DNA of 64,000 bases, taken from contig PLZJ01000002.1 of NCBI GenBank assembly GCA_003152105.1, positions 172,257 through 236,256 on the forward strand. Reading direction: 5' to 3'. A model generated the notes under the pieces. That model was not told the origin of the DNA. It ran no database searches and saw only the letters and a list, made by a program, of their open reading frames with translations. A program made the position numbers and the translations under genes. The DNA comes from Candidatus Levyibacteriota bacterium. Lineage in GTDB: Bacteria; Patescibacteriota; Microgenomatia; Levybacterales; UBA12049. The first letter of the stretch is position 1. Each line of letters begins with the position of its first letter. Below are positions 781-50,046 of the stretch, piece by piece.

Positions 781-1506
781 ATGTTTAAACAATATTTTTT
801 TGAATTAATGAGCAAGTGGAAATGGTATTTATCTGCCTTACTTATTCTTATTTCACTAGTGGCTATATATATCATAATATCCTCGTACTTTTTTCCTCGT
901 AATGCAAATCATAATAAAATAAATACTACTTCTCAACCAACAATTTCTCCAATTCCGTTATCTAGCTTCGGTATTGATTCTACAAACCCATTAAGTGGAC
1001 AAAATAATGTGAATGCTGGCGAAATAATAATTTCATTTATATCTGATAGAGAGCTTCCTTCAAGTAAAGCATTTACTATGACTATATCACCAAAACTTCC
1101 CTATTATTGGAAATTTATTAATAGTTATCCTACTAAAATAGTTGAGGCACAGGTATTTGGAGGATTGAGTCCAAACACCACATATACAGTAAGTGTTTTT
1201 GATTATAAAAATAAACCAGTAAATTCTTGGTCATTTACAACCGTGACACAACCAGCTCAATCATCTTCAGCTCTCATTCAAGATAATGAACAGAAAATAA
1301 TTAGTAACTATTTTCCACTATTTCAATGGATTCCGTATTCAAATAATGATTTTGCAATAGACTATACTTCTCCAAGCGATAATACGCTACTTGTGAATAT
1401 TAAAAATAGTAATGTAAGTAGGGTTAAACAAGAAGTAAACGATTGGATTAAAAGTCATGGAGAAGATCCTTCAAAGCAAAAGATTAATTTTGTTAATAGC
1501 TATTAA
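781..1506 (+). CDS. hypothetical membrane-anchored protein
   Basis: N-terminal TM helix, Ser/Thr/Asn-rich extracellular region. Confidence 0.45.
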   Translation: MFKQYFFELMSKWKWYLSALLILISLVAIYIIISSYFFPRNANHNKINTTSQPTISPIPLSSFGIDSTNPLSGQNNVNAGEIIISFISDRELPSSKAFTMTISPKLPYYWKFINSYPTKIVEAQVFGGLSPNTTYTVSVFDYKNKPVNSWSFTTVTQPAQSSSALIQDNEQKIISNYFPLFQWIPYSNNDFAIDYTSPSDNTLLVNIKNSNVSRVKQEVNDWIKSHGEDPSKQKINFVNSY

Positions 1507-2618
1507 CTCTGCACTCTCACAGGCATAATTATGTGCATATAAGAATCGTCGCTTTTAAATTTAAATACGCCGGGATTTAGGGGTCCTTGCATTTCAAAAA
1601 CTAATTCTTCTTCTTCAACATGAGTAAAAAAATCTAATAAATATTTAGCATTAAAGGCAATTTCGTTTTCTTCTCCCTCTAATACCCCCTCTACTTCAAC
1701 CATATTACTTCCTACTGCTGCGGTATTTGCAGATACTACTACCTTATCTTTCAAAAACGAAAATCTAACTATATTATCAGTTTCTCTAGCAAATATTCCA
1801 CTTATCTTAACTGCCTTATGCATCTCCTCTCTATTAAATACAAAGCGAAGTGAGTGTTCACTTGGAAGAATATCATCATATAAAGGAAATTCAGCGTCTA
1901 TTAGTCTTCCTATTATAGTAGTATTTGTGTCTGCAAAGATTATTTGATTGTTTTTAGAGGAAACATGAATTATTACATTACCTTCATCTTTTAATGTTAC
2001 TGCTTCCCTAAGAACTCTTGACTGCACTAGAAGTTTTTCATATTTTCCCGGATCCTGACTATTTACTCCCTCAGTTACAATGTGCTTTAAAGATAATCGA
2101 AAAGCATCAGTTGCAACAAGAAGAAAACCATTCTCTTCGCGTTTAAGTAAAACTCCAGTAAGTGCAGGCCTTGCATTATCTGTACTTGCCGCGAAAATAA
2201 CCTTAGTAAATTCTTTTTGGAGTATATCCTTATCTATAGTAGTAATAGTGTCTCCAAGGGCATCGTAGAGCGTTGGGAACTCTTCTTTTATTAATGTCTG
2301 AAATGTACTCTTACTGTGTAAACTACTAACCTCTAAGCTGTTTTCGTTGCTTTTTAATTCCACCTTATCTGAAGGAAGAGAATTAATAAGCTCAATAAAT
2401 TGTCTTGCAGAAACTAGCGTTGAACCTTCTGTTAGTATTTTTGCTGGAATTGCAACTTGAATTCCAACATCTAGATCTGTTGCTGATAACAATAATCGTC
2501 CTTCTTTACCTTCAAGTAATATGTGTTGTAATATTGGCAGCTGACTCTTAGAAGAAATGACATGTTGTATTAATGAAATCCGCTTTTGCAAGTTTTCACT
2601 TAGTACTTGTATGTGCAT
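1503..2618 (-). CDS. dnaN: DNA polymerase III beta sliding clamp
   Basis: 371 aa, three-domain clamp length and composition, immediately downstream of dnaA on the same strand. Confidence 0.85.
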   Translation of the reverse strand: MHIQVLSENLQKRISLIQHVISSKSQLPILQHILLEGKEGRLLLSATDLDVGIQVAIPAKILTEGSTLVSARQFIELINSLPSDKVELKSNENSLEVSSLHSKSTFQTLIKEEFPTLYDALGDTITTIDKDILQKEFTKVIFAASTDNARPALTGVLLKREENGFLLVATDAFRLSLKHIVTEGVNSQDPGKYEKLLVQSRVLREAVTLKDEGNVIIHVSSKNNQIIFADTNTTIIGRLIDAEFPLYDDILPSEHSLRFVFNREEMHKAVKISGIFARETDNIVRFSFLKDKVVVSANTAAVGSNMVEVEGVLEGEENEIAFNAKYLLDFFTHVEEEELVFEMQGPLNPGVFKFKSDDSYMHIIMPVRVQS

Positions 2619-2854
2619 AATCTTTTTACGTATATATAAATTGTAGTTGTAGTAGTGTATCGGGAAAAGTGGAAAAATGCAACCATATTTGAAAAACGAA
2701 ATTTATTTTTATCTATATTTATTTCAAATAAAGCTGTTTTTGCTTTTATTATTCTTATTAAATTCCCAAAAACACGAAATAAATGCTAATAAAAAATGTG
2801 GATAAGTTGTTGAAAAATTTGGGGAAAACCTGTTCACAACTCAGCATTTACTAG
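2619..2854. promoter_or_regulatory. dnaA-dnaN intergenic region with perfect DnaA box TGTGGATAA (2797-2805), AT-rich; candidate oriC or DnaA autoregulatory region
   Basis: Reverse complement of TTATCCACA at 2797-2805; additional TTATCC-like motifs at 2863-2880; AT-rich tracts. Confidence 0.4.
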
Positions 2855-4228
2855 TTATCCAAATATCCCCTTTGTTATCCCCATTATGTCAACAGATATC
2901 TTGTTTGGTGTTTTCAACATGTTCTCCACTTTTAAAACACCATGCATTACTGTTGTATGATCGCGCCCACCCAGCATATTTCCTATCTCAACATACGTTA
3001 GTTCTAGTTCTTTTTTTAACAAATACATGGTAATTTGTCTTGCTTTAACAATACCCGCATCTCTTTTGGGACCTTTTAGTTGTGTGGGCTTTATATTATA
3101 AAAAAAGCAAACATTTTTAATAATATCCTCAGGGTAAAGCCTCTTTGATTCTTGCTTTTCAATGCCTAATGCATTGTCCACCATTGCTAGAGTTGCTTTT
3201 TGTTCTTTTGTTTTTGATTCAGTTATAATTCGAAGCAAGAGCCCCTCTAGAGATCTTGCATCAGAAGCTTTTTCAGCTAGAGCTTTAGCAATCTCTATTG
3301 GTAAATCAAATTGATATTTATCAGCCTTTTTTAAAAGTATGGCTGTCTTTAGCTCAAAGTCTGGTGACTCAATATCTACGGTTAGTCCTCCTGCAAAGCG
3401 AGAGGAAAGCCTTTTTTCTAGTTTTTTAATTTCTGACGGGGGTCTATCAGATGAAAGAACAATTTGCGACCCATTATCAATTAAAATATTAAATGTGTGG
3501 AACAATTCTTCCTGAACTCTATCTTTGCCTGCAATAAATTGAATATCATCTATAACAAGGAGAGACGCAGATCTAAATCTTTTTTTCATTTTTGATGTTT
3601 CTGTATTGCGAATTGCCTCAACTACTTCATTGGTAAATTCTTCGCTGGTAATATAAATTATTTTTTTCTCAGGAGATTGTTGATAGGTAAAATTTGCTAT
3701 CGCATGCATTAGATGTGTTTTACCAACTCCTACTGGTCCATATATAAAAAGCGGATTATATGAGGTTCCAAGATTTTTTGCTACTGTCTGAGCAGACACA
3801 AAGGCAAGCTGATTACTTGAAGATACAGCAAGCGTATCAAACGTAAATTCACTTCTCACTCTTGGTAAATGTCCAAGTTGGATTAATGGTTTTTCTTGAG
3901 CAAAGGTAAGGAGCGTTTCTTTGTCGTTTTTAGAAACATTCTTTTTCTCGATTGATTTAGTTACTAAGTTTAGTTGATAGTCTCCTTGGTAATAGTCATC
4001 TACAGATTTTTTAATTTCGTTATAGAATCGTTTTTGTAGCATATCAGCAATCATTGGAGAAGTTGTTCCTATAGTCACTATGTTCTCTTCAACGGAAACA
4101 AGATGAGTTTGCCTAAAAAGCGTTAAATAGTTTACTCGAGACACTTTCGTTTCTATAGTAGACAGAATAGTTTTCCAAGCTGTATTTAGATCTTTTTCCA
4201 TAACAATTCGTTTGAGGCAATGTGGCAA
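2855..4228 (-). CDS. dnaA: chromosomal replication initiator DnaA
   Basis: Walker A GPVGVGKTHL, AAA+ box and C-terminal DNA-binding helix (TYVEIGNMLGGRDHTTV). Confidence 0.9.
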   Translation of the reverse strand: MPHCLKRIVMEKDLNTAWKTILSTIETKVSRVNYLTLFRQTHLVSVEENIVTIGTTSPMIADMLQKRFYNEIKKSVDDYYQGDYQLNLVTKSIEKKNVSKNDKETLLTFAQEKPLIQLGHLPRVRSEFTFDTLAVSSSNQLAFVSAQTVAKNLGTSYNPLFIYGPVGVGKTHLMHAIANFTYQQSPEKKIIYITSEEFTNEVVEAIRNTETSKMKKRFRSASLLVIDDIQFIAGKDRVQEELFHTFNILIDNGSQIVLSSDRPPSEIKKLEKRLSSRFAGGLTVDIESPDFELKTAILLKKADKYQFDLPIEIAKALAEKASDARSLEGLLLRIITESKTKEQKATLAMVDNALGIEKQESKRLYPEDIIKNVCFFYNIKPTQLKGPKRDAGIVKARQITMYLLKKELELTYVEIGNMLGGRDHTTVMHGVLKVENMLKTPNKISVDIMGITKGIFG

Positions 4229-19485: not shown

Positions 19486-21243
19486 ATGGATCAAGTCGAT
19501 CAAATTAGAGAAAAAACTGATATTGTAGCGCTGCTATCAGAATACTTAGAATTAAAACAAGCAGGTCGAAATTTTAAGACGACTTGTCCATTTCATCACG
19601 AAAAGTCACCTTCATTTGTAGTGTCTCCTGAAAGACAAATATGGCATTGTTTTGGTTGTAATAAGGGGGGAGATGTATTTACTTTTCTTATGGAATATGA
19701 ACAAATGGAATTTCCAGAAGCTCTTCGTTTCTTAGCTAAAAAGGCTGGTATAGAATTAAAATCAAGTGAAAGATCTAATATCGTTACGACTAAAAAAGAA
19801 ATATTATATGGATTAAATTATTTGGCTGCAGAGTTTTATCACTATTTACTAACAAAACATAAAATTGGAAAAGAAGCATTGTCATATTTGACCAATACGC
19901 GTAATTTAAACCCTAAAATTATTGAAACATTTAAGCTGGGATTTGCTCCATCTTCAGGTAACGCTTTGACTCGATTTCTTCTCGGAAAAAAGGGATATAG
20001 CGAAATCGATCTAATTGAAGCTGGACTTGCATATAGAAGAGGTCGAGATGTTTATGATTTCTTTTTTGGTAGATTAATGTTTCCATTAATTGATGCAAGA
20101 GATAATATAGTAGGATTTTCTGCAAGAGGACTAACCAACGAATCCATGCCAAAATATCTTAACACAAGAGATACTCTTATTTATAATAAAAGTAATCAAT
20201 TATTTGGCATTAACATTGCAAAGAAAGAGATAAAAAGTAAAAATCAAGCAATTTTAGTTGAAGGTGAATTTGATGTGTTATCGTTATTTCAACATGGGAT
20301 AGGGAATGTGGTAGGAATTAAAGGTACTGCTTTAACAGAGTCGCAATTAATATTGCTAAAAAGATTTTGTTCAAAGATTACTCTTTCATTAGATAAGGAT
20401 TCAGCAGGACAGCAAGCTATGTTAAGAAGTATACCTCTTATCGAAAAACAAGAGTTATTAGCAAGCGTAGTGGTTTTTGATAATGCAAAAGATCCAGACG
20501 AGGCTGTAAGAACCGATGAATACCAGGTAAAAGATGCCCTAAAACACGACGAAGATATCTATGAATATTTACTCAACCAAGCGATACAAAAATATGATGT
20601 CAAAACCCCTCAGGGCAAATCAGCAATAACTAAGATGGTATTGCCTCTTTTTGCTGGAATAAGAAACGAGATAGTTAAAGAACATTTTGTTAGAAAATTG
20701 GGCGAAGCACTAAATACTTCATATGAAAGTATAAATCGCGAAATGGCAAAATATAAAAAGGAAGAAAAATCAATACCTTCTAATGCAAAGGTTGTTGCTA
20801 AAAGAAAAAGAGAAGAATTACTCGAGGAATACATATTTTCTCTTTTAGTTCAAGGAAATAATCCTAGTCAGTTATTTATAAGACTAGAGCCAATTCTTAT
20901 GGGGTATGAGTTTAGTATTGCATCGCATTCTCGATTTTACTCCTTACTAAATGAATATTTTACTAAAACTAAGTATGTAGACCTAAAGCTATTTGTAAAT
21001 ACTCTACCTGAAGAAATGAAACAATTATTTGATATTTGTTATATTGCACCTCTTCCGACATTCCAAAGCGATATATTATATGAAAATGAATGTCTTAATA
21101 AGGCAATGGAACTAAAAAAATTATTTTTGCGTCAGCAGATTAGTATGAGCAAAGATAGTGATCTTTTAGATAAGTTACAACAAGAATATATTCAAATCGA
21201 TAAGGAGTTAAAAAGTAAATATTCTCGTTTAGCTTCCAATTGA
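19486..21243 (+). CDS. dnaG: DNA primase
   Basis: Zinc-binding [11 protein letters not shown]...[19 protein letters not shown]; followed by rpoD (MMS-operon order). Confidence 0.85.
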
Positions 21244-21268
21244 ACTTCATTTTTGGTATAATACATAC

Positions 21269-22348
21269 ATGTCCAAGCCCACACCAATAATTTCTGATAT
21301 TATACATTCTGCAAAAAAACGTGGATATATAACGCAAGATGAAATTTTAGGTATATTTTCAAAGCCAGAAGAGCATATTCTAGAACTTGATGAGTTATAT
21401 TCAAAGCTTCTTAAATTAGATATCGATGTATTCGAAACTGTTGCACAAGGTCAGGAAGAACAAAAACCCATTGAGCAACTTGAAAAGGAATTAGAAGCTC
21501 TTACTGTTTTAACCGAAGGCACAGTATCAGATCCGGTCAGAATGTACTTAAAAGAAATCGGAAGGATACCCCTGTTAACTTTTGATCAAGAAATCTCCCT
21601 AGCTAAAAGAGTAGAAAAAGGAGATGACGAAGCAAAAAAAATATTAATAAATTCTAACCTTAGATTAGTAGTATCTATTGCTAAAAAATATGTAGGAAGA
21701 GGTTTAACTTTGCTAGATTTAATTCAAGAAGGAAATCAAGGATTAATTCGAGCAGTAGAAAAGTATGATTGGAGAAGAGGATATAAATTTTCAACCTACG
21801 CCACTTGGTGGATTCGTCAAAGTATCACTCGTGCTATTGCAGATCAGGCAAGAACCATACGTATTCCAGTACATATGGTAGAAAATATCAACCGTTTTTT
21901 AAGAGCTTCTAGAAAATTAATGCAAGAACTTGGAAGAGAGCCTACGCCTGAAGAAGTTGCAAAAGTATTAAATATTGATCCCGATAAAGCTCTAGAGATA
22001 ATCAAAATATCCCAAGAACCTGCTAGTTTAGAGTCTCCGGTGGGAGATGAAGAGGACAGTAGATTAGGAGATTTCATTCATGATTCTTCAGCGCCTACAT
22101 TATTTGACTCGGCTTCAAGAGAATTACTTAAGGAACAGGTTGAGCAAGTATTGGAAACCTTGTCGGACAGAGAAAGAAGAGTTTTAGAAGAAAGATTTGG
22201 ATTAAAAGATGGGAGACCAAAGACTCTCGAAGAAGTAGGTAGAATGTTTGCTGTTACTAGAGAGCGCATAAGACAAATTGAGGCTAAAGCACTGCGAAAA
22301 CTTCGACATCCTTCTAGGGGTAATAAGCTCAAGGATTATCTTGGATAA
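21269..22348 (+). CDS. rpoD: RNA polymerase sigma-70 factor
   Basis: Regions 2-4 conserved ([60 protein letters not shown]). Confidence 0.9.
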
Positions 22349-22422
22349 ACTTTTTACAACTTCCTTAATTTTAACTCTAAATGTAGATTTATAGCTAATT
22401 TGATGTTATAATTTTCTCACAT

Positions 22423-22494
22423 TCCGCGATAGCTCAACGGTAGAGCAGGAAACTGTTAATTTCAAGGTTCTAGGTTCGAATCCTAGTCGCGGAG
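22423..22494 (+). tRNA. tRNA-Asn (GTT)
   Basis: 72 nt cloverleaf: acceptor TCCGCGA/TCGCGGA, D-arm GCTC/GAGC, anticodon loop CTGTTAA, T-arm CTAGG-TTCGAAT-CCTAG, discriminator G; no encoded CCA. Confidence 0.8.
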
Positions 22495-24117
22495 CAGATC
22501 AGGACAAACAAGCTGCAAAGTCTCTGTTTGGGTCTTTAAGTCAATAATTCCTCGCTGTTCGAAATTCAAAAGTACTGGTTCCACATCGGCAATTGTTTTA
22601 TCCCTGTTTGATATATCTGCAAGTTTCTTCAGAATGGTAAACACTGGTGTAAATTCGAAATAAAGCTTACCGTCTCTAAAAGTTAAAGATTTAAAGATGT
22701 CATTAAGCATAACTCTTTTTTCTTCAATACCTTTTGTATATAGGTATCGTTCTTTAGCACTTTGTGATAGTTCATAAAAAGTAATCGTCTTCTCAAGATA
22801 TTTAGTATCTGCATTAGCATGTTTACCTAGCTCTTCTAGGATTCCTTCTCTCTCATCAGTATATTTTCTAAACTTTGCGTCATAAAATTCTTGGGAAATT
22901 TTTCCATCAACCTTATCATCATAAAGCCTATCTAGTCGTGTTTTAACAACTTCATGCTGCTTTGTTAGCTCATTTACAGCAGTTGAATAGTAATGTGATT
23001 CATCTTCATGTCCTTCCTTTAAGGCTTTGTGTATCCATGTTTGAATACGCTTATTCTTAACTTCAAGTTCTTCAAGTACCTGTGCAAGCTCTATTTCGAT
23101 ATCAAACTCTTTTGCCCAAGTAGACTGTGAGCATGCCTTAAAGTGGTGACAATGGCCATAAATGATGTTTTTATGTATTTCCCAAGTAATTGTGCCACTA
23201 CACTCCCCACATTTAATAAGTTTGTTAAACAAAAAGAAGTGCTTGCTGTATACTGGTCCTCCTTTACCTTTCAATCTTCTTTGAACTCTTTCAAACAAAT
23301 CTTTATCAATAAGACATTCATGTTCACCTTGAGTAATAATTCCATTCCATCTATTCTTGCCTATATAAAAAGGGTTTTGCAGTAATTCATGGATCCTGCT
23401 CATTACTATTTTATGACCGTGTCTATTGCGAAGTCCTTCTTTTGCCATTTTTGCTGTTAATTGTTTTACTGAGTAATTTCCGCTGGCATAATACTCAAAC
23501 ATTTTTATAGCTAATGGAGCTTTCTCTTCATCAATAACATGAATCTTATGTCCTTTATCTCCAGTTGTAATGTATCCTACAGGTGGGGTTGTAGGTAGCC
23601 ATCCTTGTGCTAATTTTTCTTTCTGCCCCTTTTTGACTTCTTCAGAAAGGTTATCAATATAGTATTGTGCTACTGATACTTTAATATTCCATATAAACTT
23701 TTCATTTGATTTAGAATCCCTACTTAAAACAACATTTTCTTTTACAAAATGAATTTGATGGTTTGGGTTTTCATTTAACCAGTCATTCATGTCCGTTGCA
23801 TCTCTAAGATTTCTTGTTAGTCTATCAACTTTTTCGCACAGTAGAATCTCTATTTTGTGTTCTTTAACGTAAGAAAGCATGTTTAAAAAGAAATTTCTTT
23901 GCTTTTTGCCACTTGCTGATTCTGAGATTGAAAATAACTTAATTTCTTTAGGATTATATCCTTGCTTTAGAGCATACTCATTGAGAAGTTTTTCTTGAGC
24001 GGGGAGTGAATAGCCATCAACTTCCTGTTCGCGAGAACTAACCCTACAGAATATTACAATCTTTATTTTCATATTATTTCCCATTTTTATTTTCTCCTTT
24101 CGTGCTAAAGTCGTCAA
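22483..24117 (-). CDS. large serine recombinase (resolvase N-terminal domain + recombinase domain + zinc ribbon)
   Basis: N-terminal IVIFCRVSSREQ catalytic Ser motif, Cys-rich (CGEC...C...HC) zinc ribbon, about 540 aa. 3' end overlaps tRNA-Asn by 12 nt. Confidence 0.85.
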   Translation of the reverse strand: MTTLARKEKIKMGNNMKIKIVIFCRVSSREQEVDGYSLPAQEKLLNEYALKQGYNPKEIKLFSISESASGKKQRNFFLNMLSYVKEHKIEILLCEKVDRLTRNLRDATDMNDWLNENPNHQIHFVKENVVLSRDSKSNEKFIWNIKVSVAQYYIDNLSEEVKKGQKEKLAQGWLPTTPPVGYITTGDKGHKIHVIDEEKAPLAIKMFEYYASGNYSVKQLTAKMAKEGLRNRHGHKIVMSRIHELLQNPFYIGKNRWNGIITQGEHECLIDKDLFERVQRRLKGKGGPVYSKHFFLFNKLIKCGECSGTITWEIHKNIIYGHCHHFKACSQSTWAKEFDIEIELAQVLEELEVKNKRIQTWIHKALKEGHEDESHYYSTAVNELTKQHEVVKTRLDRLYDDKVDGKISQEFYDAKFRKYTDEREGILEELGKHANADTKYLEKTITFYELSQSAKERYLYTKGIEEKRVMLNDIFKSLTFRDGKLYFEFTPVFTILKKLADISNRDKTIADVEPVLLNFEQRGIIDLKTQTETLQLVCPDLLRD

Positions 24118-24325
24118 TACTAGGGGTAGGAGGAGTTTCGAACTTTAATAAAGTTCCATAGAAGGAAACAAGGAAATATGCAAAGTCTTTTAACTCTTTT
24201 GATTTTAATGAAATACTAAATTCTTCTTTTAGTATTACACCAAGTTCTTCAATTGTTGAATCTTTTAGTTTCATAATTATTTTTTTAGCCACAAACCCTT
24301 TTCTAAAAACGTTTTGAATGCCCAT
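24074..24325 (-). CDS. hypothetical small protein (island)
   Basis: ORF co-oriented with and overlapping the recombinase start. Confidence 0.3.
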   Translation of the reverse strand: MGIQNVFRKGFVAKKIIMKLKDSTIEELGVILKEEFSISLKSKELKDFAYFLVSFYGTLLKFETPPTPSIDDFSTKGENKNGK

Positions 24326-24723
24326 TTCAGATCTTCAGGATTTTTTGTTGTTATCTGATTATCAATGACTTCAGTTTTTCCATTAGGTTTATTAAACTTT
24401 CCGTACACAACTTTGAAAGTAACTAAAACATTAAATCTAGATTTTGATTTGAGGCTAGAATTTATGATTTTCTTGATTTTTCTAAGACTTGGGCGTACTT
24501 GTCTCTTTCCACTTTTTTCGTGATAGGTAATTGAAATTTTCGGAGTTAATAAATTAAAAAACTGATTGTGTGTATTTTTTATCCCTATTGAATAATTACC
24601 TATATAGTTAAGAATATATTTAACAATAACTATATTGTTATTGTTTCTATCTAATAAAAGGTTAGTATTTAAAGTTACTATTAAATGGTTATTAATATAC
24701 TTATTAGAAGGGGAGATTATCAT
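24277..24723 (-). CDS. hypothetical protein (island)
   Basis: ORF in a co-directional block with overlapping starts and stops. Confidence 0.4.
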   Translation of the reverse strand: MIISPSNKYINNHLIVTLNTNLLLDRNNNNIVIVKYILNYIGNYSIGIKNTHNQFFNLLTPKISITYHEKSGKRQVRPSLRKIKKIINSSLKSKSRFNVLVTFKVVYGKFNKPNGKTEVIDNQITTKNPEDLKWAFKTFLEKGLWLKK

Positions 24724-25054
24724 AATCTATTTCCTCCTCTCCAGTTTTAATATCTAGTAATTTTTCTTTTATTTCGTCAGTAATTTTTGAAGTCATTACT
24801 TTATATGAGTCTTTGTTGGGGAAATAAACTGCTTTAATATATTTAAATGAAATTTTATATGCAGGGAGATCAAAGACAAGGACACGGCCATTACCAAAAT
24901 CTTTATATTTTATTACGCAACCTTTTATTATTAAAATACCAAAATCAAGTTTTGCAAACGCTACTATTGGATCTTTATCAGGTACAATAGTTATATAGGC
25001 ATTTATAAGTTTACCTTCATAAAGTAATTCAAGTTTAATTTCTATATTTTTCAT
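24704..25054 (-). CDS. hypothetical protein, weakly SpoVG-like
   Basis: 116 aa; a central IKGCVIKYKDFGNGRVLVFDLP segment faintly recalls SpoVG. Confidence 0.4.
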   Translation of the reverse strand: MKNIEIKLELLYEGKLINAYITIVPDKDPIVAFAKLDFGILIIKGCVIKYKDFGNGRVLVFDLPAYKISFKYIKAVYFPNKDSYKVMTSKITDEIKEKLLDIKTGEEEIDYDNLPF

Positions 25055-25055
25055 A

Positions 25056-25328
25056 TTAATTGTTGTTGTATAGTCGATCTTTTAGGCTTTTTATTGCCTC
25101 TAAGAGTTTTCTTGCATCAACCATTGTTCTTGCGTCTTGATCAGGGGCAAAATTAAATATCTGGGTTAAATCTTCACAGGTTGAGGCATCTGCAAAGATA
25201 AAGGTAGATTTATTACTTGAGTCGCTTTTTTCTATACCCTTCAATGTCACACCTTTTGCATACAAAAATGCCGAAAGGTTAAGAGAAGAGGTTTTATATA
25301 TATTCTTGTTATTTTTATCTGTTTTCAT
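25056..25328 (-). CDS. hypothetical protein (island)
   Basis: ORF tightly packed with its neighbours. Confidence 0.4.
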   Translation of the reverse strand: MKTDKNNKNIYKTSSLNLSAFLYAKGVTLKGIEKSDSSNKSTFIFADASTCEDLTQIFNFAPDQDARTMVDARKLLEAIKSLKDRLYNNN

Positions 25329-25394: not shown

Positions 25395-26147
25395 CTAAAG
25401 ATCGACTTCTTGCAGCTCAGATATATCTTGGGGCTTAAGAGTAGCTACAAAATTGGTAAAATTATTAAAAGCGGTAAGTATTTCTTCTTGTAATTTAGTG
25501 TTTTTAGTGAGTTTTTTATTTAAACTTTTCTGATATCTATGAAAATACTTATTGAGATCACTTTCACTATGCGTTTTCCCACTTTCAGTACTAAGATTAT
25601 CAGCTATGTCCTTAAAAGAATCTCCTTGTAGTCTTAAGTTATTAAGTTTTCTTCTAAATCTGATATTCTTAGTTTTAAGTACACGATTTTTAGGAAGAAA
25701 GGTAAAAAAGTATTGCAGCTCAGATTTATAATTATCTAGAATTTTACTTAACTCTTTTAAAGAAACATACTCTGATACTGTGATAATAATTTTCTTTGTT
25801 ATATCGCCTTTTATTCCAGTTTCATTTTTTGTTTCTAGACCAATAGTTACCTTTGGTCCATTAGTTAATGGAGATGGAATTGCAACACCATGTTTTATTA
25901 TATACTTGAAAGTAAAAGCCCAATGGCTGGGTAAGTTATAAATCTTAGTAAGAAAAATCGAAGCACCTTCTACAATTAAGTCTTTTGCCTCAATTGAAGT
26001 AGCTTTAGCTGTGTTTTTTCTTGCAACAACAACAAATTCTTCAAAAAAAGGATCATCTGATAAAATGGTTATAAACTTTTTTACATGTTTCTTGAATTTC
26101 TTTTTCTCTCCATTCTTATCCTTAAGTGAAGAAATTTTTATTTTCAT
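25395..26147 (-). CDS. hypothetical basic protein (island)
   Basis: 250 aa Lys-rich ORF, first gene of the minus-strand block. Confidence 0.45.
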   Translation of the reverse strand: MKIKISSLKDKNGEKKKFKKHVKKFITILSDDPFFEEFVVVARKNTAKATSIEAKDLIVEGASIFLTKIYNLPSHWAFTFKYIIKHGVAIPSPLTNGPKVTIGLETKNETGIKGDITKKIIITVSEYVSLKELSKILDNYKSELQYFFTFLPKNRVLKTKNIRFRRKLNNLRLQGDSFKDIADNLSTESGKTHSESDLNKYFHRYQKSLNKKLTKNTKLQEEILTAFNNFTNFVATLKPQDISELQEVDL

Positions 26148-26352
26148 CTTTATATTGATCTTTTCTACCAGATTATAACATTAAACATAGCTATATTTAT
26201 GAATACCAATACAGATTAAATATAAAACTTATATAACTATTATTGATTTTAGTTACTCTTTAGCGGTACAATTCAAATACAATTTGGTTTGCCTAAACTT
26301 AAGTATTTAAATACTGAGCATGGCATAAGAAGTCTTTCGGAGCAGTAAGCTG

Positions 26353-27105
26353 TTGTCAGATGCTCCGAAAGCTAGTATCCGAAAGGGTGCTATTTGGGGA
26401 AACCCATTGCTGGCAGCAGCTTATTTTGTGAAATATTTAAATTTTAAACAAGCTTCATTCCAGCTCATAGCGGCCAGCGCCCTCGCTGCAATCCTGATTC
26501 TTGCTTACAACAATCAATCAAAGATTCAAGCAGTTCTTGGTATTTCAACTAATAAGACAACTCCAAATGCAGGAATAAACCCAAAAGAATTTGCCTACCC
26601 TACTATTAATCCGTTGCCTTCAACTGTACCAACTTATGAAATTAAGTCAAATGACCCAAACGTACAATGTAATTTATATGCTTGCGGAACAATAAGTATG
26701 TCTTCTAGTCAATGTAAGCTTTCTGGTTGTTGCACAATCGGTAATCAGAATGTTGTCATGACAGATCAAAATAAATGTACTCAAGAGCAGCAAGCATATG
26801 CCTCAACACATCAGCAGCAATCTATTCAACAACCAAATTACCCAGTTAGCAATATGAATCCATATAATAACTGCATGAACCAAGAACAAGAAATTGAAAA
26901 CACTTGTAATAGTAGCTGTTCTTCTGAGGAATCAACCGAAACAAGCTTATGTCAAAACGAATATGGATACCATGCTGTATACCAAAATTCTGATTCTTAC
27001 AGTTCATGCTTAAATGATGCAACTACAAAGAATGAGTCTTGTCTGAACAATTGCACTTCTACTTATCAAAATGGAATACAAAGTTGCTTGCAGCTATCGA
27101 AATAA
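26353..27105 (+). CDS. secreted Cys/Gln/Asn-rich protein
   Basis: N-terminal TM or signal, about 20 Cys in a low-complexity C-terminal region. Confidence 0.45.
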   Translation: MSDAPKASIRKGAIWGNPLLAAAYFVKYLNFKQASFQLIAASALAAILILAYNNQSKIQAVLGISTNKTTPNAGINPKEFAYPTINPLPSTVPTYEIKSNDPNVQCNLYACGTISMSSSQCKLSGCCTIGNQNVVMTDQNKCTQEQQAYASTHQQQSIQQPNYPVSNMNPYNNCMNQEQEIENTCNSSCSSEESTETSLCQNEYGYHAVYQNSDSYSSCLNDATTKNESCLNNCTSTYQNGIQSCLQLSK

Positions 27106-27220
27106 ATCAATTAGTAGAATTAGCTAGAAATAATACTTTAGTTTTTAGGTAACTTTACTTTCTTGTCATAAACAACTGATGGTTACATAATTCAACTGAT
27201 CAGCTTATTTAAAAACAAAT

Positions 27221-27763
27221 ATGTCAGGATTATTTGCTCTCTTGTTTCTTGCCTCAATCGTTGCTTTCCTAATCAGTATGGTAAAGCCCTCATTGTTTTC
27301 TAAAATCTCGATTACAAGACGGAAAAATGCCGCATTATTATTTGGTGGACTTACTTTTCTATTTTTAATTTTAGGAGGTGCAACAGCGCCCCAACCTTCA
27401 ACTACAGCAGTAAAGGGAGCTTCAGTTGCAGAATCACCAACAGTAATTCCAACTGTAAAACCTACAAAAATACCAACTCCAACAATAGTTCCTACTAAAA
27501 TTGTAAAACCAACATTATATATTCAGCCAACTACTCAACAGCAAACAAATGTTGTTACTCCACAAACACAGGGTTCATCAGGATTAAGCAATAACAATTA
27601 CTACACTAATTCAAGCGGCAATCAAGTTCACTCGCCAGCGTACTCAAACAATGGACAAGCACCGGCTGGTGCAACAGCACAATGCGCAGATGGAACCTAT
27701 TCTTTTTCACAACATCATCAGGGCACATGTAGTGGACATGGTGGCGTTGCTAGTTGGTTATAA
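27221..27763 (+). CDS. DUF3761-like secreted protein
   Basis: C-terminal QCADGTYSFSQHHQGTCSGHGGVASWL matches the DUF3761 signature; N-terminal TM or signal. Confidence 0.5.
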   Translation: MSGLFALLFLASIVAFLISMVKPSLFSKISITRRKNAALLFGGLTFLFLILGGATAPQPSTTAVKGASVAESPTVIPTVKPTKIPTPTIVPTKIVKPTLYIQPTTQQQTNVVTPQTQGSSGLSNNNYYTNSSGNQVHSPAYSNNGQAPAGATAQCADGTYSFSQHHQGTCSGHGGVASWL

Positions 27764-27793
27764 TCTTCAAAATCCAAAAATTGATCTCATATA

Positions 27794-28321
27794 TTGTATA
27801 ATATACGTATGTGGGAAGATGATGAATCAGAAGTTGCTTATTACGACGTAGATCAAGTTTGCTTGAATGGACATGTAATTAACGACCGTTACAATGAATC
27901 TCCTCAAAATAATAAAAAACATTGTCCTGAATGCGGAGAGCTAACTATAACTCAATGCATTAATTGTCATGCCGATATTCCTGGGTATTATAACTCAACA
28001 AAAGTCGCAGCGCTTTATACTGAACCAGCTCCTTCATATTGTCATAACTGTGGTAAACCTTATCCCTGGACTGAAAATAAGTTGAAAGCTGCAAAAGAAC
28101 TAATTGAACTTCAAGAACAATGGCAAAAGTTAGGCAAAGAAGAACAAGCAAGTATCGAAAAAAGTCTTGCAGATATTACAAAAGATACACCTCAAGCAAC
28201 AGTAGGAGCAACTCGACTTAATAAATTATTAGTTAAAATCGGCAGTGGCGCAGGAGATGCTTTAAAACAGATATTTGTTGATGTAGCAAGTGAAACAGCA
28301 AAAAAAGTTTTATTGGGATAG
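27794..28321 (+). CDS. zinc-ribbon protein (DUF2321-like)
   Basis: Paired CxxC motifs CPECG...CINCH and CHNCG. Confidence 0.45.
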   Translation: MYNIRMWEDDESEVAYYDVDQVCLNGHVINDRYNESPQNNKKHCPECGELTITQCINCHADIPGYYNSTKVAALYTEPAPSYCHNCGKPYPWTENKLKAAKELIELQEQWQKLGKEEQASIEKSLADITKDTPQATVGATRLNKLLVKIGSGAGDALKQIFVDVASETAKKVLLG

Positions 28322-28326
28322 TAAAG

Positions 28327-29073
28327 ATGAATAAAACATGGAAAGATTTCCTACCACCTCCTGAAATATTAATTGAATTGGAACCTGAATCCATAGCTCC
28401 TAATTTACTACTTTATCTCAATGACTTTGTATCTCATGATAACCAAGGTAATAAACTTCATATTAGCCATCACATAAATGAAGGTAATTCTTTACTTAGA
28501 GATTATGCTGGTACTCATCTCAAGCAGGTATTGTTAGTACTAGCAGAGGCATGGGGTTGGTTAATTCAGCAAAATTTTTTATGTCCATATCCTAATGATT
28601 CAAGTTCAAATGGATGGCTATTTATTTCCAGACGAGGAACAACAATTCAAACTTCTGATGATTTTAAAAAATATGCACATATAAGTCTATTACCACGTAA
28701 TGTGTTGGATACGGAGTTAAATAAAAAAGTATGGCCATCCTTTATTGACGGGGATTTTGATACTGCGATATTTGCAGCATTTAAAGAAGTTGAAGTTAGG
28801 ATGAGAAACGTTGCTGGATTAGATGCAACTCATATTGGTGTTAATTTGGCACGAGAAGTATTCCATCCCGAAAGTGGTCAATTAACTGATAAAATCAGCC
28901 CTGATAAAGGAGAAAAGGTAGCATATATGGAGTTATTTGCAGGTTCGATTGGTGTATTTAAAAATCCAGGCAGTCATCGACCAGTAAACTATGATGATCC
29001 AATAATAGTCGTAAGTTTAATACTTTTTGCCAACACATTGTTGCAAATAATTGAAAAAAGGAAATCTGTCTAG
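28327..29073 (+). CDS. hypothetical protein
   Basis: ORF directly following 27794-28321; possible operon pair. Confidence 0.4.
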   Translation: MNKTWKDFLPPPEILIELEPESIAPNLLLYLNDFVSHDNQGNKLHISHHINEGNSLLRDYAGTHLKQVLLVLAEAWGWLIQQNFLCPYPNDSSSNGWLFISRRGTTIQTSDDFKKYAHISLLPRNVLDTELNKKVWPSFIDGDFDTAIFAAFKEVEVRMRNVAGLDATHIGVNLAREVFHPESGQLTDKISPDKGEKVAYMELFAGSIGVFKNPGSHRPVNYDDPIIVVSLILFANTLLQIIEKRKSV

Positions 29074-29452
29074 TTTAATTTAGTTATTTATATATAACTT
29101 TCTCATTTTCTTGTTCTCAGCGCCCTTGCACAATCTCCCAAAAAAGAAAAAATGGGGGCAAAAATTTATCAATTACACTTCTATATTCAAATCGTAGAAA
29201 TTGGGGTATAGACCACTTCTAACTGTTCGTAGAAGTCGATCTCAAGATAGTGGGGAGTCCTCAAGTATCCAGGTATATAGGGAGGGTATGCAGCAATTAC
29301 ACAAATGTATAAATTCAGAAACTAAAATAAATAATAATTAGTCATGCGGCGAGGACGCTGGCAATTGTGGATTCTAGCATATTTCTATATTGATATTAGT
29401 GAATGAATTGAATTGAATAAGTAATTATTATTGACAATGGTATAATCCAAAC

Positions 29453-31606: not shown

Positions 31607-31667
31607 ACCTCTTTAGCCTCAAAATAGTCTTTTTTAGCCTCACATGAGGAGAATAGGATTCGTACCC
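31607..31667 (+). repeat. long junction extension (L-type) after R3
   Basis: ACCTCTTTAGCCTCAAAATAGTCTTTTTTAGCCTCACATGAGGAGAATAGGATTCGTACC. Shares AGCCTCAAAATAGTC...TTTTAGCCTC...GAGGAGA.TAGGATT.GAAC with 6 other junctions. Confidence 0.7.
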
Positions 31668-31678
31668 TGTTTTGATAC

Positions 31679-32323
31679 TTGAATGGACTTAGTTTAAAAT
31701 TTCATATTGCATTTAAATCAAAATATACATATAATCCTAACGCTATTATGAGTGTAGAAATTACAAGACCAATTGACCCAAGATACCAAGCAAAGCTAGG
31801 TGAAGCATCTGTTCCAGGCTGGATTGGCCTAGGTGAGAGACTTCAATTGGGGAACTTAGAGCCATATAGAGTGGCAAATCAAAGGCCAAAAGAAGGAGAA
31901 GGTAAAGTAGGCTTTGTAGTTCCGTTTGAAGTGGAGGAATTAGGTAAAGGAGAGATAAGACTTGTAGAAATAGAAAGCTCACAGGAGCAAATTGATGGTA
32001 TTCCAGTAGAGCTTATAGGTGATTATGGAACAGAGTATGGAGTTTTTATAACTTTAAATGAAGTGGGTTTTCCTCAAGTTCCAGAAGTTTGGCTATATCA
32101 TCCTCATAGACCAAGATTTATTGCAGAAGTTCGGACTGATAAAACTGACGACCCACTTGTAAAAACAGCTAATGTTGACAATATTTGGAAAGATATAGAT
32201 GATATAAGTCGTAAACTTGCAATTAGAGAATCTGATCTTCCACTTATAATGTTTGGAATACAACAAGAATGGTCAACCGACACAACAACTCCTGGTAAAA
32301 AACCTCAAATGTGGCAAGACTAA
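31679..32323 (+). CDS. cassette gene: hypothetical protein
   Basis: ORF between R3 and R4. Confidence 0.45.
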   Translation: MNGLSLKFHIAFKSKYTYNPNAIMSVEITRPIDPRYQAKLGEASVPGWIGLGERLQLGNLEPYRVANQRPKEGEGKVGFVVPFEVEELGKGEIRLVEIESSQEQIDGIPVELIGDYGTEYGVFITLNEVGFPQVPEVWLYHPHRPRFIAEVRTDKTDDPLVKTANVDNIWKDIDDISRKLAIRESDLPLIMFGIQQEWSTDTTTPGKKPQMWQD

Positions 32324-32869: not shown

Positions 32870-33775
32870 TCAATTATATTTTATTTCATCTAATACTTCT
32901 GCTACTTTCATAGGACTATGCCATGCAGTATCTCCATGATCTTCAATGCGATAAATAATTGATAACATAGTTTGTACAAAACTCCATTGTAAAATTCTAT
33001 TTCTTTCAAAGTTTAATTCATCAGCAAGTATTTCTATACGTTTAATTAATATTTCTTTAAGGTTTGTTTTTTTTGCCAGAGTAGGATACGGATTTCGCAT
33101 CATAGCTCCTGTTTCAAAACATGGATCTCCAACAATTCCATTTGGATCAATTGCGAGCCACCCTTCACGATCAGATGATAAGATATTACCCTGGTGTAAA
33201 TCACCATGCATAACAACTATATTTGACGTAGAGCTAATTAAACCATTTAGCATAAATTCAGTCTTATCTAGTAAATATAGAGAGAGTGGGTTATTAGATC
33301 CAGAAAATCTTTTTTTATATTTAGGTATATGACTAGAAAGCTCTGATACAAGTTTAAAATCATGTTTTTCTGGAACTTTTCTACTAATTCTTTTTATTAT
33401 CGAAGCTAGGATTTTGGTTTGTGTTTCATCCTCACTAAGTTTATTTAATCTTTTGCCAGGTACAGCTTGTTCAAGTAGCATTGTCATATTTTCATCATTG
33501 CTACTTATCAAATTTATGCTACCTTCACCATTAAAAAGTTTTAATGCTGCAACTTCTGATAAATAGCCCTCGTTACCTGGGAAATCTATTTTTATTACTA
33601 ACTTATCTCCAGTATTTCTAGTTGCTGGAGCTACATAGTTGTATGACAAATCATAGGGTTTTCCTATTTTTAAATTCCAATCTTTTTCAAAATATGTTAA
33701 CAGATTTGGTATATTATCTAACCATTCTTGTCCTCCAGTACGATTTTTTATGTCGTGTAAAAAATTCTGGTTCAT
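32870..33775 (-). CDS. cassette gene: aminoglycoside/small-molecule phosphotransferase (APH) family kinase
   Basis: Catalytic loop HGDLHQGNIL and IDPNG...GDPCFE, typical of the APH/choline kinase fold. Confidence 0.6.
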   Translation of the reverse strand: MNQNFLHDIKNRTGGQEWLDNIPNLLTYFEKDWNLKIGKPYDLSYNYVAPATRNTGDKLVIKIDFPGNEGYLSEVAALKLFNGEGSINLISSNDENMTMLLEQAVPGKRLNKLSEDETQTKILASIIKRISRKVPEKHDFKLVSELSSHIPKYKKRFSGSNNPLSLYLLDKTEFMLNGLISSTSNIVVMHGDLHQGNILSSDREGWLAIDPNGIVGDPCFETGAMMRNPYPTLAKKTNLKEILIKRIEILADELNFERNRILQWSFVQTMLSIIYRIEDHGDTAWHSPMKVAEVLDEIKYN

Positions 33776-35916: not shown

Positions 35917-35976
35917 AACTACTCAGCCTCAAAATAGTCTTTTTTAGCATCTCTGGAGGAGACTAGGATTAGAAAC
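35917..35976 (+). repeat. long junction extension (L-type) after R10
   Basis: AACTACTCAGCCTCAAAATAGTCTTTTTTAGCATCTCTGGAGGAGACTAGGATTAGAAAC. Its right arm is an inverted imperfect copy of GTTCTAACGTCCTCC. Confidence 0.7.
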
Positions 35977-35995
35977 TTCTGATATAATACACCTC

Positions 35996-37094: not shown

Positions 37095-37154
37095 AACTAT
37101 CTAGCCTCAAAACAGTCATTTTTAGCCTCGTTGGAGGAGACTAGATTAGAACCT
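37095..37154 (+). repeat. long junction extension (L-type) after R12
   Basis: AACTATCTAGCCTCAAAACAGTCATTTTTAGCCTCGTTGGAGGAGACTAGATTAGAACC. Confidence 0.7.
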
Positions 37155-37174
37155 TCTGGTATAATAGCAACCAA

Positions 37175-46616: not shown

Positions 46617-46677
46617 AACTACCTAGCCTCAAAATAGTCATTTTTAGCCTTGTTAGAGGAGATTAGGATTCGAACCT
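46617..46677 (+). repeat. long junction extension (L-type) after R23
   Basis: AACTACCTAGCCTCAAAATAGTCATTTTTAGCCTTGTTAGAGGAGATTAGGATTCGAACCT; its reverse complement CTTAGGTTCGAATCCTAATCTCCTC resembles the tRNA T-arm/acceptor 3' end. Confidence 0.7.
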
Positions 46678-46697
46678 AAGTTTGGTATACTACAAAA

Positions 46698-50029: not shown

Positions 50030-50046
50030 TTTCTAATAAAAGTGTC

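What the first reader, a model, noticed from the sequence alone, without database searches (positions are those of the whole stretch)
22423..24117. Large serine recombinase whose stop codon lies inside the 3' end of tRNA-Asn: integrated element boundary next to the cassette array
The minus-strand recombinase ORF ends DLLRD-stop. Its last four codons and stop (22483-22497) overlap the T-stem and acceptor 3' strand of tRNA-Asn(GTT), the classic signature of an element that integrated into a tRNA gene and restored its 3' end. The recombinase heads a block of five co-directional hypothetical genes, followed by divergent Cys-rich/DUF3761/zinc-ribbon genes, and then the cassette array begins. Serine rather than tyrosine integrases at tRNA sites are unusual. 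Whether this recombinase, rather than an IntI, services the cassette repeats is an open and testable possibility.
Basis: partly seen in the sequence, partly recalled or inferred. Interest (0 to 1): 0.7.

Follow-up and report, generated by a model that had tools for sequence, protein, structure and literature searches.

The report
Serine integrase ending inside tRNA-Asn

Summary
tRNA-Asn(GTT) lies at 22423-22495 (+). A 533-aa large serine recombinase (LSR, 22483-24084, -) puts its stop codon in the T-stem 3' strand, a 13-nt overlap.

This is a family trait, not chance. In 34 of 84 informative homologous loci the LSR stop lies inside a whole convergent tRNA, mostly Asn. Another 21 have a tRNA 3' part at the LSR end. 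165 of 248 homologues end in a peptide that is the antisense translation of a tRNA 3' end, against 4-28 in controls.

One relative (L016) shows the full anatomy. The last 19 nt of the tRNA (17 nt at the search setting of at most 2 mismatches) occur three times in direct orientation. They bound a 7-kb LSR element and a 2.5-kb LSR-less segment.

In the window no second copy of this core exists within 41.5 kb, so the far end is undefined and the element may be locked in. Conserved neighbours (o83, DUF5659) and the orphan Rfam LOOT RNA recur beside the LSR in relatives.

No test links the LSR to the 28-repeat cassette array. The repeat occurs in no other fetched locus, and it does not match the tRNA core in direct orientation. 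No IntI is present either.

Verdict: a new variant of a known kind, of moderate to good interest.

The parts
22423..22495 (+). tRNA-Asn(GTT). It follows rpoD by 74 nt and has its own promoter-like TTGATG..TATAAT. No CCA is encoded. The 5' part is presumably of host origin.
   Evidence: ARAGORN; Rfam tRNA 67.8 bits; sequence.
22473..22496 (.). Inferred attL core: the segment of the tRNA from the end of the T-stem 5' strand, through the T-loop, to the discriminator. It is probably supplied by the element and contains the crossover. It also contains the LSR stop codon (22483-22485).
   Evidence: By analogy. In L016 the 19-nt stretch GAATCCTCGCGGGGGAGCA is repeated at the element's distal ends. 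In L002 (74% identical LSR) and L030, tRNA likeness next to the LSR begins at the GG before TTCGA. This was not shown in the window itself.
22483..24084 (-). Large serine recombinase (533 aa from ATG 24084; the ORF is open up to TTG 24117). It has the catalytic Ser motif RVSS, the DRLTR motif, a recombinase domain, and the zinc-ribbon residues C292, C295, C312 and C318.
   Evidence: Pfam PF00239 and PF07508; PHROG 95 integrase, 1e-69; invariant residues; PDB matches to the TP901-1 integrase catalytic domain.
24074..24325 (-). 83-aa ORF overlapping the LSR start. It is the most widely conserved companion of the LSR, but its function is unknown. A recombination directionality or DNA-binding role is only a guess.
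   Evidence: tblastn and blastp homologues sit upstream of the LSR in L002, L027-L030 and L012, and through L012 it links to a small-protein family in L005, L009, L018, L020 and L022.
24277..25054 (-). Two small ORFs (148 aa and 116 aa), co-directional with the LSR. Neither has a family match.
   Evidence: The 148-aa ORF has a weak homologue in L005.
25056..25328 (-). DUF5659 protein (90 aa), a recurrent gene of these elements.
   Evidence: Pfam PF18903, 8e-10; homologues sit upstream of the LSR in L012, L018, L020 and L056.
25395..26147 (-). 250-aa ORF, the last gene of the block co-directional with the LSR. It has no family match.
26286..26412 (+). LOOT RNA (Rfam RF03000), transcribed divergently from the LSR block. 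It is preceded by a promoter-like TTGATT-18-TACAAT and overlaps the 5' end of the Cys-rich ORF. It recurs in these LSR elements.
   Evidence: Rfam 64.2 bits. Rfam also finds LOOT upstream of the LSR in L018, L020, L022, L026 and L038. My own covariance model adds L034, L035, L039 and L041 and finds none elsewhere in 1.02 Mb. Promoter-like site at 26243-26272.
26353..29073 (+). Divergent block: Cys-rich 250-aa protein, DUF3761, DUF2321 zinc-ribbon protein and Hypoth_Ymh protein. It is possible cargo of the element, but membership is unproven because the distal boundary was not found.
   Evidence: Pfam. It resembles the L016 element, which has a divergent block with a Cys-rich secretory (CAP) protein and DUF4145. 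It is contiguous with the LSR block in independent Logan assemblies.

Best explanation
The LSR is the integrase of a small integrative element, at least about 4 kb (22.47-26.4 kb) and possibly about 7-8 kb (up to roughly 29-30 kb). The element inserted into the 3' end of the chromosomal tRNA-Asn gene of a Candidatus Levybacteria genome.

Proposed mechanism:
- In the free circular form, attP overlaps the 3' end of the LSR gene. The last codons of the LSR are the antisense of a copy of the tRNA's 3' end.
- LSR dimers bound to attP and to attB synapse. attB is the T-arm and acceptor 3' region of tRNA-Asn.
- Strands are exchanged at a 2-nt crossover in or next to the T-loop.
- The result is a whole tRNA made of a host 5' part and an element-supplied 3' part, running straight into the LSR gene. 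That is the arrangement seen here.

Shown:
- the overlap itself
- LSR domain content and catalytic residues
- the family-wide tRNA association
- a three-fold direct repeat of the tRNA's last 19 nt bounding an LSR element in L016
- recurrent companion genes and the LOOT RNA

Inferred:
- the crossover position
- that the window's 3' tRNA segment came from the element
- the extent of the element

No attR copy of the core is found within 41.5 kb. The window's copy has therefore probably lost its distal site and can no longer excise precisely. The cassette array next door is a separate feature.
For: - Observation.
- Protein family: Resolvase plus Recombinase domains, conserved RVSS and DRLTR motifs and zinc-ribbon cysteines.
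- Family pattern: in 34 of 84 informative loci the LSR stop lies inside a whole convergent tRNA (19 Asn, 5 Asp, 5 Gln, 2 Ser, and one each of Val, Trp, His). The overlap is 12-64 nt. Another 21 loci have a tRNA 3' part at the LSR end. At least 5 of those are tRNA-Asn genes split by a group I intron.
- C-terminal peptides such as WLRGQDSNLQP are antisense translations of CCA, acceptor and T-arm. They occur in 165 of 248 full-length homologues, against 4-28 of 248 in internal-window and shuffled controls.
- L016: the core GAATCCTCGCGGGGGAGCA occurs at the tRNA/LSR junction and again 7.0 kb and 9.5 kb into the element side. The two distal copies share at least 58 nt of identical flank, the P arm.
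- L002 (74% identical LSR) and L030 carry only the last 23-25 nt of a tRNA fused to the same LSR tail DNA.
- o83 and DUF5659 homologues and the LOOT RNA recur upstream of the LSR in relatives. Other relatives carry Prim-Pol, OLD nuclease or restriction cargo. Relatives also occur on IMG/VR viral contigs.
- rpoD, dnaG and ruvCAB to the left are core genes.
Against: - The window has no second copy of the tRNA core with up to 3 mismatches, and no P-arm homologue. The element's distal boundary is therefore undefined, and integration is inferred only from one junction.
- Only 1 of 24 relatives with at least 5 kb of upstream flank shows the distal repeat. Most elements are therefore either longer than 10 kb or lack a recognisable attR.
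- No empty site or circular junction was found. All assemblies with these exact proteins have the same arrangement.
- The crossover position is inconsistent between subgroups. Distant LSRs carry a whole 3' half starting at the anticodon loop.
- No composition difference marks the region, except slightly lower GC at 24-26 kb.
Confidence: 0.8

Rival explanations
1. The LSR, rather than an integron integrase, services the neighbouring 28-repeat cassette array. It would insert and excise cassettes at the repeats, making the array a serine-recombinase analogue of an integron.
For: - No tyrosine recombinase is encoded anywhere in the 64-kb window. The LSR and an IS3-type rve transposase are the only recombinases.
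- The array starts near where an element of the L016 size would end.
- The family can leave LSR-less segments bounded by att cores: a 2.5-kb segment in L016 and a 1.85-kb DUF6922/AbiEii module between two tRNA-like repeats in L002.
- Seven long repeat units carry a T-arm-like stretch. The best copy matches the window's tRNA-Asn T-arm at 17 of 18 positions. Five of the seven best local matches to the tRNA 3' region in the whole window are these units, and 1 of 150 simulations reaches that score.
Against: - The array repeat is found in no other fetched locus. It occurs only in L001, the same genome, among the 87 loci held at the time. Blastn-short against the then 104 other loci found nothing. 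No LSR locus has any comparable repeat array.
- The conserved 27-mer does not resemble the tRNA core in direct orientation.
- The T-arm-like stretch is on the opposite strand, occurs in only 7 of 28 units, and is degenerate in most of them.
- The 27-mer has no dyad symmetry of the kind LSR sites have.
- The family's demonstrated target is the tRNA 3' end.
Confidence: 0.05
2. The LSR is a domesticated or stranded recombinase and no longer part of any mobile element. It would be the relic of an old insertion whose other end is gone, kept by chance or for a host function such as controlled inversion or excision.
For: - No attR or P arm is present in the window.
- All available assemblies of this population have the same arrangement.
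- 23 of 24 relatives with a long flank also lack a detectable distal repeat.
Against: - The gene is full length with all catalytic residues.
- It keeps its element-type companions: o83, DUF5659 and LOOT.
- The closest homologue (74%) sits in a different context, which indicates recent mobility of the lineage.
- No host function is suggested by any data.
- This reading overlaps with the best explanation. It differs only on whether the copy is still mobile.
Confidence: 0.12
3. The overlap is incidental. The element lies downstream of an untouched host tRNA gene, and the ORF simply runs on to the first stop codon, which happens to fall inside the tRNA.
For: - The overlap length varies from 12 to 64 nt and depends on where the first in-frame stop occurs in the antisense tRNA.
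- In L030 a whole tRNA-Asn lies 63 nt away from the LSR's own tRNA-like fragment.
Against: - The junction is fixed to the nucleotide across the family. The conserved P-x-[WL]-L-[RP] end is always in register with CCA, discriminator and acceptor.
- L016 repeats the tRNA's last 19 nt at the element's far ends.
- L002 and L030 carry the tRNA 3' fragment with the LSR even without a tRNA.
Confidence: 0.03

Closest known systems
Phage and ICE/IME large serine recombinases (serine integrases such as Bxb1, phiC31, A118, TP901-1, phi105; CcrAB of SCCmec)
   Same: It has the same domain order: resolvase catalytic domain with nucleophilic Ser, recombinase domain, and a Cys-rich zinc ribbon. The size is similar (about 530 aa). 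The gene sits at the edge of the element next to the attachment site. Like SCC elements at the 3' end of rlmH, relatives can pile up in tandem at the same site (L016).
   Different: Sequence similarity is low: 25-30% to phi105 and Geobacillus E2 integrases, and NCBIfam CcrB, CcrC and XisF scores are far below cut-off. Known serine integrases usually insert inside protein-coding genes and share only 2-8 nt between attP and attB (PMC5704250 and general knowledge of Bxb1 and phiC31 sites). Here the target is a tRNA gene, the element carries a 17-25-nt replacement of the tRNA 3' end, and the integrase ORF terminates inside the tRNA.
Tyrosine-integrase genomic islands and prophages at tRNA 3' ends (P4-like, pSAM2-type, mv4 and others)
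   Same: The logic is the same. Insertion is in the 3' part of a tRNA gene, the element restores the gene, the integrase gene lies next to the tRNA, a direct repeat of the tRNA end marks the far boundary (seen in L016), and the cargo is variable.
   Different: The enzyme family and chemistry are unrelated. The enzyme is a serine recombinase (concerted double-strand breaks and subunit rotation), not a tyrosine recombinase. The integrase here converges on the tRNA and overlaps it.
Phage vB_PamS_Pami6 of Paracoccus (serine recombinase, predicted integration in tRNA-Met; PMC6536676)
   Same: It is a serine recombinase with a predicted tRNA integration site.
   Different: It is a single reported case in an alphaproteobacterial siphovirus. 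No family-level pattern or ORF-tRNA overlap is described. Its relatedness to this clade was not tested.
Integrons (IntI tyrosine recombinase plus attC cassette arrays) and CALINs
   Same: The neighbouring array has 28 same-strand repeats spaced 0.4-2.9 kb apart, mostly one ORF per unit. Cassettes include an APH(6)-like kinase.
   Different: There is no IntI. Only 7 units have the two-armed hairpin form. The core GTTCTAAC departs from the RYYYAAC/GTTRRRY consensus (consensus from my own knowledge). Many units carry their own extended -10 promoter. The LSR is not an integron integrase.

Membership tests
Large serine recombinase (serine integrase) | N-terminal resolvase-type catalytic domain with the nucleophilic serine and conserved Arg/Asp residues | tested here: met
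   PF00239, 9.5e-23. R14, S16, S17, D87, R88 and R91 are invariant in 16 homologues. A profile of the family matches the TP901-1 integrase catalytic domain, 3bvp.
Large serine recombinase (serine integrase) | Recombinase domain (RD) following the catalytic domain | tested here: met
   PF07508, 7.8e-15, residues 197-284.
Large serine recombinase (serine integrase) | Zinc-ribbon domain with an embedded coiled coil | tested here: inconclusive
   C292, C295, C312 and C318 are invariant, and PF13408 is precomputed for many homologues. However, Pfam did not report PF13408 for the window protein at E<=0.01. The coiled coil was not examined, and no structure was predicted.
Large serine recombinase (serine integrase) | Recombines attP x attB sites of about 40-50 bp at a central dinucleotide | not testable with these tools
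   Only the region of the crossover (T-loop to discriminator) can be inferred, from L016, L002 and L030.
tRNA-integrated mobile element (genomic island or prophage at a tRNA 3' end) | Integrase gene directly adjacent to the 3' end of an intact tRNA gene | tested here: met
   The feature is family-wide.
tRNA-integrated mobile element (genomic island or prophage at a tRNA 3' end) | Direct repeat of the tRNA 3' end at the distal boundary (attR) | tested here: not met
   No copy of the 17-22-nt core with up to 3 mismatches occurs elsewhere in the window. The feature is met in relative L016, which has 3 copies.
tRNA-integrated mobile element (genomic island or prophage at a tRNA 3' end) | Presence/absence polymorphism between related genomes, or excised circular form | tested here: inconclusive
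   Only one population is available, and it shows the same arrangement throughout. Related Levybacteria L085-L087 lack an LSR at tRNA-Asn but are too divergent for flank comparison.
Integron (for the claim that the LSR services the cassette array) | IntI-type tyrosine recombinase next to attI at the head of the array | tested here: not met
   None of the ORFs scanned against Pfam, about 40 in all (every ORF of 250 aa or more except three in the housekeeping left flank), has a tyrosine recombinase domain.
Integron (for the claim that the LSR services the cassette array) | attC sites: imperfect inverted repeats folding as single-strand hairpins, with RYYYAAC...GTTRRRY cores | tested here: inconclusive
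   7 of 28 units are two-armed. The best unit folds on the bottom strand with z = -3.2. Short units do not fold.

The most novel reading that the evidence does not exclude
This LSR clade does more than integrate whole elements. It may also accumulate LSR-less modules in tandem at tRNA-derived sites, as seen in L016 and L002. On this reading, the 28-unit array beside it is a cassette platform built or serviced by a serine recombinase, and the T-arm-like arms of its long repeats are the trace of that origin. That would be a serine-recombinase counterpart of the integron.
Probability: 0.06. Interest if true: 0.9.

Novelty: new variant of a known kind. Interest (0 to 1): 0.6.

Why it matters
Textbook practice assigns tRNA attachment sites to tyrosine integrases and gene-disrupting sites to serine integrases. 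The largest LSR attachment-site survey looked only at protein-coding targets.

A large clade of serine integrases aims at the T-arm/acceptor end of tRNA genes and repairs it with an element-borne copy. It comprises 1,314 clusters at 50% identity at E<=1e-30, and about two thirds of the sampled members show the tRNA signature. This has several consequences:
- It changes how integrated elements should be searched for in candidate-phyla-radiation genomes.
- It gives a simple sequence signature for finding them: a C-terminal W-L-R/P...D-S-N peptide.
- It offers unidirectional integrases with highly conserved natural landing sites, which could serve genetics in uncultivated lineages.
- It places the orphan LOOT RNA inside a defined mobile element.

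Tried and rejected
- Direct repeats of the tRNA 3' end in the window. I tried a 22-mer, 17-mer and 13-mer with mismatches, sliding 20-38-nt probes, an nhmmer profile of tRNA-Asn 3' halves, and 9-mers. Only chance-level hits appeared. 57589-57618 is not tRNA-like. The 9-mer at 49088 is within chance expectation.\n- P-arm search with the L002 sequences found nothing.\n- Empty-site comparison with Levybacteria that share 88-90% identical RpoD. There is no synteny beyond dnaG-rpoD, so it is unusable.\n- Exact-protein look-ups for alternative junctions found only the same arrangement.\n- I first read the isolated tRNA 3' halves next to several LSRs as attP sites with a crossover in the anticodon loop. 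I rejected this for L016, L019, L026, L027, L029 and L038. They are 3' exons of tRNA-Asn genes split by group I introns.\n- I considered the G27-A43 mismatch in the window's tRNA as a scar of chimeric origin.
Full report
**1. The observation**

ARAGORN finds one tRNA in the window, tRNA-Asn(GTT) at 22423-22495 on the + strand. Rfam confirms it at 67.8 bits. The minus-strand ORF 22483..24117 ends DLLRD-stop. Read against the sequence, the stop codon is 22483-22485, inside the T-stem 3' strand (22482-22486). The last codons cover the acceptor 3' strand (22487-22493) and the discriminator (22494). The overlap with the tRNA is 13 nt.

The protein has Resolvase and Recombinase domains. It matches the PHROG integrase family 95 at 1e-69. 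It keeps the catalytic RVSS and DRLTR motifs and four invariant zinc-ribbon cysteines. The likely start is ATG 24084, which gives 533 aa and the exact sequence of database protein P0001, carried on a 1.14-Mb metagenome scaffold.

To the left are ruvCAB, dnaG and rpoD, and dnaA-dnaN lie at 1.5-4.2 kb. RpoD relatives name the organism as Candidatus Levybacteria, a candidate phyla radiation lineage.

**2. The overlap is a property of the whole family**

An alignment of 16 homologues (51-74% identical) shows a conserved end, P-x-[WL]-L-[RP]. It is often followed by strings such as GQDSNLQP or RLDSNQQPSGY. These are antisense translations of a tRNA 3' end. W is the antisense of CCA. L-R or L-P is the discriminator plus acceptor stem. 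D-S-N is GGTTCGAATCC read backwards.

I fetched 80 metagenomic loci with an alignment-based scan and 18 viral contigs. I then located the LSR stop and the tRNAs in each.
- Of 84 informative loci, 34 have the stop inside a whole convergent tRNA: 19 Asn, 5 Asp, 5 Gln, 2 Ser, and one each of Val, Trp and His. The overlap is 12-64 nt, median 40.
- Another 21 loci have a tRNA 3' part at the LSR end.

The peptide signature occurs in 165 of 248 full-length homologues, against 4-28 of 248 in internal-window and shuffled controls. An exhaustive phmmer search finds 1,314 clusters at 50% identity with E<=1e-30. About two thirds of the 130 best full-length representatives carry the signature. The nearest integrases of cultured phages (phi105, Geobacillus E2) are only 25-30% identical.

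**3. Where the element joins the tRNA**

Several LSRs sit next to what looked like an isolated tRNA-Asn 3' half. For L029 and L038, Rfam finds a group I intron between that half and a 5' exon. L016, L019 and L026 show the same intron 3' hallmark before the contig ends, and L027 breaks off 13 nt upstream of its 3' exon, too soon to judge. These are therefore intron-split tRNAs, not attP sites.

The informative case is L016 (LSR 50% identical).
- The 19-nt stretch GAATCCTCGCGGGGGAGCA runs from the T-loop to one base past the discriminator.
- It occurs at the tRNA/LSR junction and twice more, 7.0 kb and 9.5 kb away on the element side, all in the same orientation.
- The two distal copies share at least 58 nt of identical left flank.

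This is the pattern expected for attL, then a 7-kb LSR element, then a P-arm-plus-core site, then a 2.5-kb LSR-less segment with the same end, then attR.

In L002 (74% identical, the closest relative) and L030, the tRNA likeness fused to the same LSR tail DNA begins at the GG before TTCGA. It spans 23-25 nt, and no tRNA 5' part adjoins it. I therefore place the crossover in or next to the T-loop. By this reading the element supplies about 17-25 nt of replacement tRNA 3' end, which includes the LSR's own stop codon. This step is inferred, not shown in the window.

A more distant subgroup (L052, L057, L060, L062, L064) carries a whole 3' half starting at the anticodon loop, with no 5' half nearby. 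That remains unexplained.

**4. What belongs to the element in the window**

Homologues of the 83-aa ORF and of the DUF5659 protein recur upstream of the LSR in other loci. Rfam finds a LOOT RNA (RF03000) at 26290-26408, divergent from the LSR block.

LOOT also lies 1.5-7.8 kb upstream of the LSR in L018, L020, L022, L026 and L038. My own covariance model adds L034, L035, L039 and L041. It finds no LOOT elsewhere in 1.02 Mb of fetched sequence. The genes that follow LOOT differ from locus to locus.

Relatives carry Prim-Pol, OLD-type nuclease or restriction genes as cargo. The complete L016 element has a divergent block with a Cys-rich secretory protein and DUF4145. That layout resembles the window's divergent Cys-rich, DUF3761, DUF2321 and Ymh block.

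The element is therefore at least 22.47-26.4 kb and may extend to about 29-30 kb. The distal end could not be found:
- No second copy of the core occurs with up to 3 mismatches.
- The profile search gave no hit.
- No P-arm homologue exists.

Among 24 relatives with at least 5 kb of upstream flank, only L016 shows the distal repeat.

**5. Polymorphism**

Exact-protein look-ups for RpoD, the Cys-rich protein and the 220-aa protein return only the same arrangement. They hit three large assemblies and short Logan contigs from three further runs.

One of those contigs is identical to window 20917-22459 and stops exactly after the anticodon loop of the tRNA. This could be a branch in the assembly graph or plain loss of coverage. 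Related Levybacteria have tRNA-Asn near rpoD without an LSR, but they share no further synteny.

**6. The cassette array**

There are 28 copies of (A)GGTTCTAACRTCCTCCACTCCTGCGAGC between 30343 and 52210, all on the + strand.

Evidence against a link to the LSR:
- No tyrosine recombinase is found among the ORFs scanned in the window.
- The repeat occurs in no other fetched locus.
- No LSR relative has a comparable array.
- The 27-mer does not match the tRNA core in direct orientation.

One oddity remains. Seven long units carry a T-arm-like stretch on the opposite strand. The best copy, at 46661-46680, is 17/18 identical to the window's tRNA-Asn T-arm. Five of the seven best local matches to the tRNA 3' region in the whole window are these units. 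One of 150 simulations reaches that score. The long unit folds best on the bottom strand (z = -3.2), and the short units do not fold.

I rate the idea that the LSR services the array at about 5%.

**7. Comparison with what is known**

The IME review PMC5704250 states that tyrosine integrases use tRNA 3' ends without disrupting them. It states that site-specific serine recombinases insert within genes, with very short repeats. The LSR attachment-site survey PMC10083194 groups targets by protein-coding gene and contains no occurrence of 'tRNA'. PMC6536676 predicts a tRNA-Met site for one serine-recombinase phage. Searches combining serine recombinase or integrase, tRNA, and Patescibacteria or candidate phyla radiation found nothing relevant.

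The protein is a bona fide LSR, and the element works like a tRNA-targeting island. The combination, and its scale, appear to be undescribed in the library I could search.

**8. Verdict**

The interpretation as an integrated-element boundary is supported by family evidence, but the element's far end is missing in the window. The proposed link to the array is not supported. I classify the finding as a new variant of a known kind, with interest 0.6.

Noticed in passing
window 26286-26412 (+); L018 6028-6157, L020 7238-7359, L022 8154-8271, L026 2109-2244, L034 296-423, L035 8326-8451, L038 4302-4429, L039 1594-1731, L041 7141-7269: The orphan Rfam family LOOT RNA (RF03000) is a recurrent part of these LSR elements. 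It always lies on the LSR-upstream side, 1.5-7.8 kb away, mostly antiparallel to the LSR, and is followed by a different gene in each locus.
   Followed up: partly
window 30343-52210 (+): There is an array of 28 same-strand repeats, (A)GGTTCTAACRTCCTCCACTCCTGCGAGC, spaced 0.4-2.9 kb apart with mostly one ORF per unit. Many units are followed by an extended -10 promoter (TGnTATAAT) and a nearby ATG. No integron integrase is present in the window. The repeat is absent from all other fetched loci.
   Followed up: partly
window 46661-46680, 49981-50040, 35941-35980, 31621-31680, 37101-37160 (minus strand): The seven long array repeat units contain a stretch like the T-arm of the window's own tRNA-Asn. 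The best copy is 17/18 identical, and 1 of 150 simulations reaches its score. The stretch is inverted relative to the tRNA. This is unexplained.
   Followed up: partly
window 32870-33775 (-): One cassette in the array encodes an APH(6)-type aminoglycoside/hydroxyurea kinase (PF04655, 2e-31), a resistance-type gene in a candidate-phyla-radiation genome.
   Followed up: no
window 53472-54125 (+): An rve-family (IS3-like) transposase ORF lies just past the last array repeat.
   Followed up: no
L029 3555-3835, L038 11693-11933; also L016, L019, L026 (L027 too truncated to judge): tRNA-Asn genes of several candidate-phyla-radiation bacteria are split by a group I intron in the anticodon loop. ARAGORN misses them, and many contigs break inside the intron.
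   Followed up: partly
L066 2446-2468, L070 11692-11715, L012 about 11931, L003 about 11726, L063: A partial copy of the tRNA 5' part, interrupted by a GC-rich palindrome, lies 30-300 nt upstream of the whole tRNA that abuts the LSR. In L012 a GIY-YIG-like small ORF lies in between. Simple integration does not predict this.
   Followed up: partly
L002 4101-4145 and 5983-6030: In the closest relative (74% identical LSR), two degenerate tRNA-3'-like repeats with similar left flanks bracket a 1.85-kb DUF6922/AbiEii toxin-antitoxin module next to the LSR. It looks like an LSR-less module in tandem.
   Followed up: partly
L107 (Logan SRR7151530), equal to window 20917-22459: An independent short-read contig, 100% identical to the window, ends exactly after the anticodon loop of tRNA-Asn. 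This may be an assembly-graph branch at the tRNA or just coverage loss.
   Followed up: partly
window 1503-4228 (-): dnaN and dnaA lie about 18 kb from the tRNA-Asn/LSR junction, so the island and the array sit close to the replication origin region.
   Followed up: no
window 29074-29452: A 380-nt intergenic gap lies between the Ymh gene and the 220-aa ORF. It contains a small inverted repeat, ACTTCTA-ACTGTTCG-TAGAAGT, with a TTCTAAC motif like the array repeat core. It is a possible boundary between the element and the array.
   Followed up: no
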